A stretch of DNA of 64,000 bases from sequence record PP993145.1; one strand, written 5' to 3'. This document shows, one piece after another, positions 21,818 through 53,848 of the stretch. The notes beneath the pieces are model-generated. The model had not been told where the DNA came from. It searched no databases and saw nothing but the letters and a program-made list of their open reading frames with translations. A program made the translations under genes and the position numbers. This DNA is from Escherichia phage phiP4. Numbering within the stretch: the first letter of the stretch is position 1; each line of letters opens with the position of its first letter.

Positions 21818-22186
21818 AATTGAAAACTCGCAGGGTTAGCGAAACCTTCCTCAATTAGCATGTTCTAGAATACTAATCAAGTTATCTCCTATTGCACGCA
21901 GCTCAAGACGAGTACGAATTTTCAATTGTGGCGGCTCTCAGAAACTCTTCTACTCTAGCTTTAGCAGCTTACTCCCGAACGCATGTCGGGGAAGTCTTAC
22001 CAAGAGCATCAAATAGCACCGTTACACTTTGAGCCATAGATGTATCAAGAAGCAGAAGGATTTGAACCTTCACGAGATAGACCAGTTATCTCAGCCGCTT
22101 TATGAGGTATGTTGCAGGGAGTGGATGTTCCCTATAAACCTTTTAGGCAGCCCCGTCTACCGATTCCGGCATACTTCAAGAATTTT

Positions 22187-22380: not shown

Positions 22381-22470
22381 TGGCAGAAGATAATGGAGTC
22401 GAACCATCACCGTATCGCTACAGCGGGCTGGTTTTCAAGACCAGTTACGTACCACTACGTCCTATCTTCT
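22381..22470 (-). tRNA. tRNA-Ser (anticodon TGA)
   Basis: Hand fold: class II, long variable arm, anticodon loop CTTGAAA, CCA. Confidence 0.65.
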
Positions 22471-23135: not shown

Positions 23136-23214
23136 TGGTGGAGAATAACGGAATCGAACCGTTCTGATGTCCTCGGTGCAAGCGAGGTGTCCACTCCATG
23201 CAGACCCATTCCCC
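23136..23214 (-). tRNA. tRNA-Ala (anticodon TGC)
   Basis: Hand fold: acceptor with G3:U70 pair, anticodon loop CTTGCAC, CCA. Confidence 0.65.
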
Positions 23215-23452
23215 AAATTCTTTAGTTTACTAAGGCTATTAGCTCGGCGTAACTACAGCACCTTCGCTTCGAGCGGAAGGAACTGCGTCATCTCGCAAAC
23301 CCAATACACTATTCAGTTGCCGCTGAATCTAGTGGACCAATCTAGAACTTCTCCCGAATCAGGGGGATCGTGCTTTTTGGCAGCCAGTCCTAGGTCGAGC
23401 TAATACCTTAGTGAACTATGATGAGGATTTCTCCTCATCAATTTATATAAAT

Positions 23453-23481
23453 ATTATAACAAGAAATTAAGCATCAAGCAA
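23453..23481 (-). promoter_or_regulatory. sigma70-type early promoter (TTGCTT-N17-TATAAT) upstream of a tRNA sub-cluster
   Basis: Hexamers and spacer read directly. Confidence 0.6.
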
Positions 23482-23500
23482 CTGCGTTTTTTCTTGAAAT

Positions 23501-23929: not shown

Positions 23930-24138
23930 TAATTTTTGTTAACTCACTTTATAAGATATATTATACAGAGAATTAAGCAGAATAGCAAATGAATTTTTAA
24001 TAAATTTACTTATTGTGTAGGCCACCTAGAGGCTATGAACCCCACGGCTGACAAAGAAGTTTGCGAGACTTCTCTTAAATGCCAGAATAGACCCGCCGAT
24101 CTATCGGAACCTACATAATAAGTAAACTTTATAGTGTC

Positions 24139-24258
24139 ATTCTAGACAGGACTCGAACCTGTTATCACTTGTGCGGACTTACGAGAACCATTCTTTCACT
24201 CGAATCGAACGAGCTTCTGCCCTCGCCAAGCTGGTTTCCCCATCAACCACGCTAGAAT
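24139..24258 (-). other. composite tRNA-like element (120 nt) with two T-arm hairpins and a D-arm-like hairpin
   Basis: Outer 7-bp acceptor-like pairing ATTCTAG/CTAGAAT spans 120 nt; no canonical anticodon arm found by hand. Confidence 0.3.
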
Positions 24259-24380
24259 GTTTGATTGTTTTCAGTGCAAGAGTCCGAGTCTTGGACACGA
24301 CCGCTTCGCAAGTACATAGGCAGCTTATCATGAGTCAGCACTTCCGAATTGCTAGCTCCGTGTTCTGCACTGAAATTTTA

Positions 24381-25052: not shown

Positions 25053-25125
25053 TGGTATCTGTGGCTGAATTCGATGTCAGCAATGATAGCTGGTTGGCTA
25101 CCGGTTTACTTAACTCTACACAGAA
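25053..25125 (-). other. non-canonical tRNA-like element (no U33 in candidate anticodon loop, 8-nt T-loop)
   Basis: 6-bp acceptor with encoded CCA; anticodon loop CAACCAG lacks U33. Confidence 0.3.
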
Positions 25126-27867: not shown

Positions 27868-27945
27868 TGGTGGCTCCCCGAGGATTCGAACCTACGTACC
27901 TTCCGGTTATGAGCCGGGTGCTCATACCATATGAGCTTGAGAACC
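27868..27945 (-). tRNA. tRNA with anticodon CAT (third CAT tRNA; Met or Ile2), imperfect T-stem
   Basis: Hand fold: acceptor GGTTCTC/GGGAGCC, D-arm GCTC/GAGC, anticodon loop CTCATAA, CCA. Confidence 0.5.
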
Positions 27946-32138: not shown

Positions 32139-32210
32139 TACCGACCGTAGGATTCGAACCTACATCTTCCACCAGTTACGGCTTGATAATACCAATTATA
32201 CTAGGACGGC
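32139..32210 (-). other. tRNA-like element with acceptor and perfect T-arm but no recognisable anticodon arm
   Basis: T-arm GTAGG-TTCGAAT-CCTAC; acceptor 6/7 paired; no CCA. Confidence 0.3.
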
Positions 32211-53819: not shown

Positions 53820-53848
53820 TTGCTTTCAGGAAAATTTTTCTGTATAAT
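53820..53848 (+). promoter_or_regulatory. PN25-like strong early promoter (TTGCTT-N17-TATAAT) with leader ATTCATAAATTTGAGAGAGGAGTT
   Basis: Near-exact match to the phage T5 PN25 promoter and leader as recalled. Confidence 0.75.

What the first reader, a model, noticed from the sequence alone, without database searches (positions are those of the whole stretch)
23215..23452. Promoter-driven 230-nt non-coding leader upstream of tRNA-Ala
A consensus promoter (23453..23481) fires toward tRNA-Ala, but the intervening sequence has no ORF longer than about 12 codons and contains GC-rich stretches. It may be a small stable RNA or a tRNA precursor leader.
Basis: seen in the sequence. Interest (0 to 1): 0.5.

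Follow-up and report, generated by a model that had tools for sequence, protein, structure and literature searches.

The report
T5 stable RNA "RNA2H" gene
The "leader" is the window's copy of rna2H, a gene already annotated in phage T5 for an abundant small RNA of unknown function; here it proves to be a conserved, intricately folded, doubly pseudoknotted RNA found only in T5-like phages, next to their tRNA genes.

Summary
A T5-type early promoter (23453-23481, minus strand) drives about 230 nt of non-coding sequence ending 9 nt before tRNA-Ala. It is the orthologue (96% identity) of T5 rna2H, annotated in GenBank as a 172-nt "stable RNA with unknown functions" behind promoter P13b, so its existence is already known. 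New here: the RNA is a self-contained 194-nt module (23224-23417) found in about 500 T5-like phage genomes of three Demerecviridae lineages and in no bacterial genome. It matches no Rfam family, no host sequence and no paralogue. Covariation supports a 22-bp closing helix, four hairpins and two pseudoknots in which two hairpin loops dock on one junction strand: 68 pairs, 96.9% paired, 34 with compensatory changes. A very divergent copy in Pectobacterium phage My1, not used for the model, keeps every helix with new compensations. The ends annotated in T5 lie inside the closing helix with a 2-bp, 3'-overhang stagger, which suggests RNase III excision (inferred). Viable T5 deletions remove it, so it is accessory. 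Most likely it is a trans-acting, protein-binding or decoy RNA. Its function remains unknown.

The parts
23476..23481 (-). -35 hexamer TTGCTT of the T5-type early promoter (T5 P13b)
   Evidence: Sequence. T5 annotates the site as promoter P13b. The motif occurs 26 times in the window against 0.12 expected. A promoter of this type lies upstream of 47 of 58 copies.
23453..23461 (-). Extended -10 element TGT-TATAAT
   Evidence: Sequence. Conserved in relatives, including Sugarlandvirus, Eos and My1.
23419..23440 (-). 5' leader hairpin UGAUGAGGA-GAAA-UCCUCAUCA between the start site and the module
   Evidence: MFE fold. Different but equivalent hairpins occur in KKP_3711 and My1. The hairpin is absent in Sugarlandvirus and Eos, where the -10 ends 8 nt before P1.
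23224..23417 (-). RNA2H module, from the first to the last base of closing helix P1 (194 nt)
   Evidence: Covariance-model match of 221 bits against 33.7 bits on the opposite strand. The homology boundaries coincide with the ends of P1 while both flanks are mosaic.
23234..23405 (-). Predicted mature RNA (172 nt), by transfer of the T5 rna2H annotation
   Evidence: blastn of T5 RNA2H onto the window: 95.9% identity over 172 nt. T5 annotation.
23396..23417 (-). P1, 5' strand (AGUUCACUAAGGUAUUAGCUCG)
   Evidence: Pairs with 23224-23246. Six pairs are compensated across the family, with further compensations in My1.
23224..23246 (-). P1, 3' strand, with an invariant bulged G
23392..23395 (-). P2a, 5' strand (ACCU), pairing with GGGU at 23299-23302
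   Evidence: Found by a covariation scan. 99.5% paired with 2 compensated pairs. CCUU/AAGG in My1.
23385..23390 (-). Pseudoknot PK1, junction strand (GGACUG), pairing with the H3 loop UGGUCC at 23334-23339
   Evidence: 100% paired, 4 of 6 pairs compensated. GAGUC/GGCUC in My1.
23379..23382 (-). Pseudoknot PK2, junction strand (UGCC), pairing with the H4 loop GGCA at 23318-23321
   Evidence: 97.6% paired, 3 of 4 pairs compensated. Variants: UACC/GGUA, AAUC/GAUU, and UUGC/GCAA in My1.
23370..23373 (-). P2, 5' strand (GCAC), pairing with GUGU at 23306-23309
   Evidence: 100% paired but with one-sided changes only, so support is weak.
23352..23367 (-). Variable hairpin V1
   Evidence: 3 compensated pairs. 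Relatives carry 22-25-nt insertions holding their own inner hairpins.
23328..23346 (-). Hairpin H3 (5 bp, 9-nt loop holding the PK1 partner)
   Evidence: UCUAG/CUAGA becomes UCUGA/UCAGA in the SE3 type, and CUGGA/UCCAG in My1. 95.5% paired after register correction.
23312..23327 (-). Hairpin H4 (5 bp, 6-nt loop holding the PK2 partner)
   Evidence: 98.1% paired after register correction, with 4 compensated pairs.
23247..23296 (-). Variable hairpin V2 (about 50 nt)
   Evidence: 8 compensated pairs. Two unrelated sequence versions occupy the same place.
23215..23223 (-). Spacer AAAGAAUUU between the module and tRNA-Ala
   Evidence: The spacer is 3-10 nt in all lineages.
23136..23214 (-). tRNA-Ala(UGC), the downstream cistron of the same unit
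   Evidence: tRNA-Ala follows 48 of 58 copies.

Best explanation
The interval is the orthologue of phage T5 rna2H. It is a gene for an abundant, non-coding, compactly folded RNA, expressed from its own strong early promoter as the first cistron of a small RNA operon (RNA2H, tRNA-Ala, tRNA-Leu). Shown here: homology to rna2H; a covariation-supported fold in which a 22-bp helix P1 closes a junction carrying hairpins V1, H3, H4 and V2, and the loops of H3 and H4 both dock by base pairing on one junction strand (two pseudoknots); restriction to T5-like phages; and a modular, promoter-to-tRNA gene context. Inferred: the RNA is cut out of the primary transcript inside P1, most likely by host RNase III, because the T5-annotated ends lie 12 bp into the helix with a 2-bp stagger and 3' overhangs, and they sit in an invariant box next to an invariant bulged G. 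Also inferred: RNase P then frees the downstream tRNA. Also inferred: the released 172-nt RNA acts in trans and stoichiometrically, by binding or decoying a protein conserved across Enterobacterales hosts or across these phages. It would be an accessory factor for host takeover or counter-defence that is not needed on laboratory E. coli.
For: Identity: 96.2% over 238 nt to T5, where rna2H and promoter P13b are annotated. Structure: z = -6.18. 68 pairs are 96.9% paired against 32-42% when partners are slid. 34 pairs have changes on both sides, against 24.0 +/- 2.2 in shuffles (0 of 500 reach it) and 4-11 when slid. The pseudoknots were not part of the covariance model, yet PK1 is 100% and PK2 97.6% paired, with 4 and 3 compensated pairs. 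The My1 copy, found only by the model and not used to build it, keeps all helices with new compensations. G-U pairs and the 221 versus 34 bit strand asymmetry place the RNA on the minus strand. Independent gene: module boundaries equal the P1 ends while the flanks are mosaic. About 100 nt of core is nearly invariant across genera while the peripheral hairpins are replaced. Distribution: about 426 Markadamsvirinae and 79 Sugarlandvirus records, plus My1, and 0 hits in 185,579 bacterial and archaeal genomes. Processing: mature ends at module nt 13 and 184. P1 length is constant at 21-22 bp although its sequence diverges. Accessory status: viable T5 deletions d30661-38625 and d29191-32442 remove it (PMC11464382), and phage FFH1 carries a natural 126-nt internal deletion. 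The neighbouring tRNAs of this island neutralise host defences (PMC11464382).
Against: No experiment or partner is known, and no paper on RNA2H was found. How the T5 record's RNA ends were determined could not be checked, so the RNase III inference rests on annotation. A trans role is argued only from conservation pattern, modularity and the label 'stable RNA'. The tight, conserved linkage to a downstream tRNA (88% of copies) would also fit a cis role. The covariation events come from roughly 8-10 lineages, so cell counts overstate the number of independent events. RNAalifold also proposes a competing helix (columns 126-133 with 142-151), so one region may switch conformation.
Confidence: 0.55

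Rival explanations
1. It is a purely cis-acting processing cassette. The structured leader exists to protect the 5' end, provide an RNase III or RNase E entry site, and fold the precursor so that the downstream tRNA-Ala and tRNA-Leu mature efficiently. The excised RNA would be a by-product.
For: The promoter-module-tRNA order is conserved in three subfamilies, with a tRNA starting within 15 nt in 51 of 58 copies. P1 resembles rRNA-type processing stems. The RNA is dispensable, like the tRNAs themselves.
Against: A processing stem needs only P1. It does not explain about 100 nearly invariant core nucleotides and two covarying pseudoknots kept from T5 to My1. The module persists where an ORF separates it from the tRNA (7 copies) and where its own promoter is replaced (11 copies). 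Other tRNA groups in the same cluster lack such a leader.
Confidence: 0.2
2. It is an RNA with its own biochemical activity or assembly state. It could be a self-processing ribozyme. It could also be an RNA-only homo-oligomer in which PK1 and PK2 form between molecules, as in phi29 pRNA rings or ROOL/GOLLD cages.
For: The fold is complex and pseudoknotted with an invariant core, at about 170-195 nt. Covariation cannot tell intra- from inter-molecular pairing. The mature ends lie inside a helix. Like GOLLD and ROOL, it sits in a phage next to tRNA genes.
Against: No ribozyme or large-RNA family matches, even at E up to 10. The annotated ends fit a protein nuclease (RNase III) well. Both pseudoknots are sterically feasible within one molecule. 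There is no direct evidence for either activity.
Confidence: 0.1
3. It is a cis-acting transcription element, a promoter-proximal RNA that modifies RNA polymerase in the manner of HK022 put. It would carry transcription through the structured, untranslated tRNA cluster.
For: It lies immediately downstream of a strong promoter (8-42 nt) in 81% of copies and heads an untranslated operon.
Against: The operon is short, and another promoter follows within about 0.9 kb. In 11 copies the promoter is not adjacent. The RNA is annotated as a stable excised species. At about 190 nt it is much larger than put RNAs (from memory).
Confidence: 0.07
4. It is not an RNA gene. It would instead be a small protein gene or a DNA-level site, for example a homing-endonuclease target or a recombination site.
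For: Several GenBank records call hypothetical proteins across it. The window has a 78-codon antisense ORF. HNH endonuclease genes populate the cluster.
Against: The ORFs are not conserved (8-62 codons) and are broken by 22- and 25-nt indels. Compensatory changes that include G-U pairs, and loop-strand pseudoknots, are RNA- and strand-specific.
Confidence: 0.02

Closest known systems
Phage T5 rna2H (misc_RNA in AY543070/NC_005859 and AY692264; 'stable RNA with unknown functions')
   Same: Orthologue: 96% identity, same promoter (P13b), same position upstream of tRNA-Ala and tRNA-Leu.
   Different: The window phage lacks the tRNA-Val that precedes P13b in T5, and a few point changes preserve pairing, e.g. 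A to G in the H3 loop giving a U-G pair. No structure, family or function has been published for T5 RNA2H in the literature searchable here.
RNase III processing stems that excise stable RNAs (16S/23S rRNA precursor stems, T7 early-transcript sites); from established knowledge
   Same: A long-range 5'/3' duplex of about two helical turns encloses the functional RNA. The annotated ends give 2-nt 3' overhangs on both products.
   Different: Cleavage was not tested here. The enclosed RNA is a 150-nt pseudoknotted domain of unknown function.
GOLLD and ROOL large structured RNAs of phages and prophages (Rfam families; from memory)
   Same: Encoded by phages, typically beside tRNA genes. Elaborate conserved folds with pseudoknots. 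Function unknown. No associated protein gene.
   Different: They are 3-4 times larger and occur in other bacterial lineages. There is no sequence or structure match. Oligomerisation of RNA2H is untested.
phi29 pRNA (from memory)
   Same: A phage RNA of about 170 nt whose 5' and 3' ends pair in a long helix, with short covarying loop complementarities.
   Different: pRNA is part of the packaging motor, and its loop pairs are intermolecular. T5 packaging has no known RNA, RNA2H comes from an early promoter, and no Rfam match was found.
MALAT1-mascRNA type 3'-end formation by a downstream tRNA-like element (from memory)
   Same: A tRNA directly downstream (3-10 nt) can define the 3' end of the upstream RNA through RNase P cleavage.
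   Different: That is a eukaryotic system. Here the annotated 3' end lies further upstream, inside P1.

Membership tests
T5 rna2H stable-RNA family | Sequence homology to the annotated T5 rna2H | tested here: met
   96.2% over 238 nt; 95.9% over the 172-nt annotated RNA.
T5 rna2H stable-RNA family | Synteny: between promoter P13b and tRNA-Ala in the tRNA cluster | tested here: met
   The context is conserved in 47 and 51 of 58 copies respectively.
T5 rna2H stable-RNA family | Accumulates as a discrete stable RNA in infected cells | not testable with these tools
   Rests on the GenBank annotation of T5. No primary paper or RNA-seq data were available.
tRNA or tRNA-like RNA | Cloverleaf with T-loop and D-loop recognised by ARAGORN or Rfam RF00005 | tested here: not met
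   No tRNA or tmRNA call over 23224-23417. No clan CL00001 match even at E up to 10.
tRNA or tRNA-like RNA | Acceptor-like end with 3' NCCA (for Ala identity, G3-U70) | tested here: not met
   The annotated mature end is ...AAUAGCC, and the terminal pairs are U-A, A-U, U-A.
RNase III-excised RNA | Uninterrupted duplex of about 20 bp or more formed by the flanks | tested here: met
   P1 is 21-22 bp with one bulge in every lineage, and its length is kept while its sequence covaries.
RNase III-excised RNA | Mature ends staggered by 2 bp with 3' overhangs | tested here: inconclusive
   True for the T5-annotated ends, but how those ends were determined is unknown.
RNase III-excised RNA | Processing depends on rnc | not testable with these tools
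   Needs end mapping in an rnc mutant.
GOLLD / ROOL / other curated large structured RNAs, ribozymes, 6S, Y RNA, pRNA (Rfam 15) | Match to the family covariance model | tested here: not met
   Nothing at gathering score. Only noise at E up to 10 in the window and E up to 5 in four divergent copies.
GOLLD / ROOL-like (what it works like) | Phage-encoded, adjacent to tRNA genes, complex pseudoknotted fold, no partner ORF | tested here: met
Riboswitch or attenuator leader | An expression platform (terminator or sequestered RBS) between the aptamer and a regulated gene | tested here: not met
   No terminator-like site on the minus strand between P1 and the tRNA. The spacer is 3-10 nt, and the downstream gene is a tRNA.
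Host RNA mimic or antisense RNA | Sequence similarity or extended complementarity to host DNA | tested here: not met
   No blastn match at E up to 10 in 5,426 complete E. coli genomes.

The most novel reading that the evidence does not exclude
RNA2H founds a new class of compact, doubly pseudoknotted phage RNA that does a biochemical job of its own. It might sequester or disarm a conserved host factor or immune nuclease, self-process, or assemble into an RNA-only oligomer through its loop-strand pairings. In rank it would compare with ROOL, GOLLD or raiA, but in the best-studied enterobacterial phage family.
Probability: 0.3. Interest if true: 0.8.

Novelty: already known. Interest (0 to 1): 0.5.

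Why it matters
T5 has carried several "stable RNAs with unknown functions" in its annotation for two decades. Most T5-like genome records leave this one blank or call spurious proteins across it. The analysis shows that RNA2H is an ancient, phage-only RNA with a conserved tertiary architecture, and that it has no Rfam family. It also gives testable pairings, processing sites and coordinates, and viable deletion mutants already exist. It lies in the tRNA island whose tRNAs were recently shown to neutralise host defences (PARIS, retron Eco7). A role in host takeover or counter-defence is therefore a concrete, testable possibility in a model phage.

Tried and rejected
1. Nested helix P2 (CUAGGACU/AGUUCUAG), chosen by single-sequence folding and the first RNAalifold run. 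It loses a pair in the SE3 and SB13 copies and cannot form in KKP_3711, Sugarlandvirus, Eos or My1. It was replaced by hairpin H3 plus pseudoknot PK1.
2. Rfam, at gathering score and at permissive thresholds, on the window and on four divergent copies: nothing.
3. Host mimic or antisense target in E. coli: no match.
4. Paralogy with the other T5 stable RNAs, in case the 'H' means homologue of RNA2: no similarity by blastn, nhmmer or the covariance model.
5. Coding potential on either strand: not conserved.
6. Short exact-pattern scans of viral contigs (a 14-mer and a 16-mer) gave mostly chance hits. L034-L152 and L154 were discarded.
7. tRNA 3'-end (NCCA) mimicry by the PK2 strand, and AlaRS-type G3-U70 identity: contradicted by the Eos variant (AAUC) and by the terminal pairs.
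8. Mimicry of the P1 3' strand by the V2 loop GGCUAAU: it does not covary, and the Tequintavirus V2 lacks it.
9. Vibrio phage pVp-1, first 50 kb including its tRNA region: only a 13-bit hairpin-level hit.
10. Literature searches for RNA2H, T5 stable RNAs or T5 non-coding RNAs found no functional study.

Full report
**What the window is.** The window carries 22 tRNA genes on the minus strand. It is 95-98% identical to T5-like phages, so it comes from a member of the Demerecviridae close to Tequintavirus.

**Observation check.**
- The promoter is as described, on the minus strand: TTGCTT at 23481-23476, a 17-nt spacer, TATAAT at 23458-23453, and an extended -10 TG.
- A generic sigma-70 scan missed it because its -35 matches TTGACA at only 3 of 6 positions.
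- The phage's own promoter type, TTGCT-N18-TATAAT, occurs 26 times in the window against 0.12 expected, always co-oriented with local genes.
- One of those sites (53820-53848) matches, from memory, the classic T5 P_N25 promoter.
- Between the promoter and tRNA-Ala (23136-23214), the sense strand has no ORF above 21 codons. A 78-codon antisense ORF exists but is not conserved.
- The interval is the local GC maximum.
- It folds at -85.8 kcal/mol with z = -6.18.

**Identity.** The interval is 96.2% identical to T5, where it is annotated as misc_RNA rna2H, 'RNA2H, stable RNA with unknown functions' (172 nt), preceded by 'promoter P13b'. A second T5 record annotates it identically, and a third leaves it blank. 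Transferred to the window, the mature RNA is 23234-23405. The window also holds orthologues of the six other T5 stable RNAs. No paper on RNA2H was found in the searchable library. Existence is therefore already known, but structure and function are not.

**A self-contained module.** In 58 distinct copies, homology starts and stops exactly at the ends of a long closing helix (window 23417 and 23224), while both flanks are mosaic.
- Upstream: 47 copies have a T5-type promoter. Its -10 ends either 8 nt before the helix or 35-42 nt before it, with a leader hairpin in between. The other 11 copies have unrelated sequence.
- Downstream: 51 copies have a tRNA starting within 15 nt (48 Ala, 3 Leu). The other 7 have an inserted ORF.

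**Distribution.**
- blastn finds about 426 Markadamsvirinae records and, using divergent copies as queries, 79 Klebsiella Sugarlandvirus records plus a few others.
- A profile search first revealed the divergent copies in Enterobacter phage KKP_3711 and in the Sugarlandvirus GlastoCabaret.
- A gapped core pattern found 27 viral contigs, 13 metagenome contigs and no hit in 185,579 bacterial and archaeal species genomes.
- A covariance model built here then found a full-length copy (56 bits, E about 4e-18) in Pectobacterium phage My1, subfamily Mccorquodalevirinae. It lies in an unannotated gap of that phage's tRNA cluster.
- Nothing convincing was found in the tRNA region of Vibrio phage pVp-1.
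- There is no paralogue in the window, no E. coli similarity and no Rfam match.

**Structure.** On a 57-sequence model-guided alignment (A6), the final model has 68 pairs in 10 helices.

| Element | Window coordinates | Note |
|---|---|---|
| P1 | 23396-23417 with 23224-23246 | 22 bp, invariant bulged G |
| P2a | 23392-23395 with 23299-23302 | found by a covariation scan |
| P2 | 23370-23373 with 23306-23309 | one-sided changes only |
| V1, H3, H4, V2 | 23352-23367, 23328-23346, 23312-23327, 23247-23296 | hairpins |
| PK1 | 23385-23390 with the H3 loop, 23334-23339 | pseudoknot |
| PK2 | 23379-23382 with the H4 loop, 23318-23321 | pseudoknot |

- Overall, 96.9% of cells are paired, against 32-42% when partners are slid.
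- 34 pairs change on both sides, against 24.0 +/- 2.2 in shuffles (0 of 500 reach it) and 4-11 when slid.
- PK1 reads GGACU/AGUCC, GAACC/GGUUC, GAGUC/GACUC and GAGCC/GGCUC in different lineages.
- PK2 reads UGCC/GGCA, UACC/GGUA and AAUC/GAUU.
- The pseudoknots were not part of the covariance model, so the alignment was not fitted to them.
- H3 and H4 needed a one-column register correction in the distant copies. After it they are 95.5% and 98.1% paired.
- The nested helix that single-sequence folding preferred fails in the distant copies.
- The My1 copy was not used to build the model and serves as an out-of-sample test. It keeps P1 with the bulged G and six newly compensated positions, P2a (CCUU/AAGG), H3 (CUGGA/UCCAG), PK1 (GAGUC/GGCUC), PK2 (UUGC/GCAA) and P2.

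Caveats on the structure:
- The events come from roughly 8-10 lineages, so cell counts overstate independent events.
- P2 has only one-sided changes.
- RNAalifold proposes a competing, less well kept helix that could be an alternative conformer.

**Conservation pattern.** About 100 nt of core is nearly invariant from Tequintavirus to Epseptimavirus. This covers the junction strand GGACUGGCUGCCAAAAAGCAC, H3-H4, and AGUGUA...UUUG. V1 and V2 are replaced wholesale or expanded by 22-25 nt. GCAC, UAGUGUA and an A-run persist even in My1. This is the signature of a functional tertiary fold or a binding surface. A spacer or leader would not show it.

**Biogenesis (inferred).** The T5-annotated RNA begins at module nt 13 and ends at nt 184.
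- In P1 this places the 5' cut after G12 and the 3' cut after C184, which pairs with G11.
- Both products therefore carry 2-nt 3' overhangs, the geometry of RNase III on a duplex of about two turns.
- The cuts fall in the only invariant stretch of P1 (UAAGG / G-CCUUA with the bulged G). P1 keeps 21-22 bp in all lineages while the rest of it covaries.
- RNAIV, 0.6 kb upstream, likewise has annotated ends inside a 21-bp closing stem.
- RNase P cleavage at the adjacent tRNA, followed by trimming, is an alternative route to the 3' end.
- How the T5 ends were determined could not be checked.

**Function (inferred).** RNA2H is dispensable on laboratory E. coli. The viable mutants T5Mos (d30661-38625) and T5-123 (d29191-32442) delete it (PMC11464382). 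Phage FFH1 has lost 126 nt of it between GCTCGA direct repeats. It lies in the tRNA island whose tRNA-Lys and tRNA-Tyr neutralise PARIS and retron Eco7 (PMC11464382, PMC10644984). Five features favour a trans-acting, stoichiometric, protein-binding or decoy RNA serving host takeover or counter-defence: a strong early promoter, the 'stable' label, the modular gene, the invariant core, and restriction to phages. I put this at about 0.55 overall. Identity and fold are above 0.9, RNase III excision is about 0.5, and a trans accessory role is about 0.5.

**Rivals.**
- A purely cis processing cassette for the tRNAs, at 0.2. It fits the conserved tRNA linkage but does not explain the conserved pseudoknotted core.
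- A ribozyme or an RNA-only oligomer, at 0.1.
- A put-like antitermination element, at 0.07.
- A protein gene or a DNA-level site, at 0.02, essentially excluded.

**Verdict.** The element is a known, annotated T5 gene, so its novelty is 'already known'. The covariation-supported doubly pseudoknotted architecture, the family's extent, the absence of any Rfam family and the proposed processing are, within the literature I could search, not described. Together they turn an old loose end into a testable problem.

Noticed in passing
window 24014-24116 (-), with closing stem 24003-24129: Orthologue of T5 RNAIV ('stable RNA with unknown functions'). It folds with z = -6.6 into a multi-branch structure closed by a 13+8-bp stem. 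The annotated mature ends again lie inside the stem, at an A-C mismatch, which suggests the same excision route as RNA2H.
   Followed up: partly
window 25053-25125, 24135-24259, 22036-22180, 21929-22035, 21819-21924 (all -): Orthologues of the T5 stable RNAs RNA3, RNA2, RNA1, RNAI and RNAIII (84-100% identity). None has an Rfam family at gathering score. RNAI and RNA3 end in an encoded CCA after an acceptor-like stem.
   Followed up: partly
window 23482-23500 (-): The window phage lacks the tRNA-Val(UAC) gene that lies between tRNA-Lys and promoter P13b in T5. The flanks of the RNA2H module are mosaic among relatives.
   Followed up: partly
window 27871-27945 and 32139-32210 (-): Two tRNA matches found by Rfam (40.3 and 35.5 bits) that ARAGORN did not call. 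Conversely, ARAGORN's tRNA-Ala (23136-23214) and tRNA-Ser (22381-22470) were absent from the gathering-threshold Rfam run on the whole window; tRNA-Ala reached 36.3 bits in the regional run.
   Followed up: no
window 53820-53848 (+), and 25 further sites: 26 T5-type promoters (TTGCT-N18-TATAAT) against 0.12 expected. They lie on the minus strand up to about 45.2 kb and on the plus strand from about 47.4 kb, which marks a divergent transcription switch. One site matches, from memory, the widely used P_N25 'T5 promoter'.
   Followed up: partly
L008 436-503 (Escherichia phage FFH1, NC_024139): A natural 126-nt internal deletion of RNA2H between two GCTCGA direct repeats. It leaves only a P1-like hairpin, so a viable phage lacks the RNA core.
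   Followed up: yes
L165 11799-11948, L157 283-426 and 500-604, L170 365-463 and 482-628, L167 274-459: Many GenBank records call 'hypothetical protein' CDSs across RNA2H, often on the antisense strand. These are probably mis-annotations of a non-coding RNA gene.
   Followed up: partly
L187 29270-29362 (-) (Pectobacterium phage My1): An unannotated tRNA (ARAGORN: tRNA-Leu) begins 3 nt after the My1 RNA2H homologue. The 368-nt gap between My1_054 and My1_055 therefore holds a promoter, an RNA gene and a tRNA gene, none of them annotated.
   Followed up: partly
alignment A6 columns 126-133 with 142-151 (window about 23295-23320): RNAalifold proposes an alternative helix between the H4 3' half and the junction before V2. 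It is mutually exclusive with H4, PK2 and P2a and shows some covariation, so it may be a conformational switch or a by-product of coupled columns.
   Followed up: partly
L182 1822-2026 (metagenome contig JACCDR011339985.1): A further divergent RNA2H subtype with its own V1, a TTGTCA -35 and a downstream tRNA-Leu. No isolate in the phage collection matches it.
   Followed up: no
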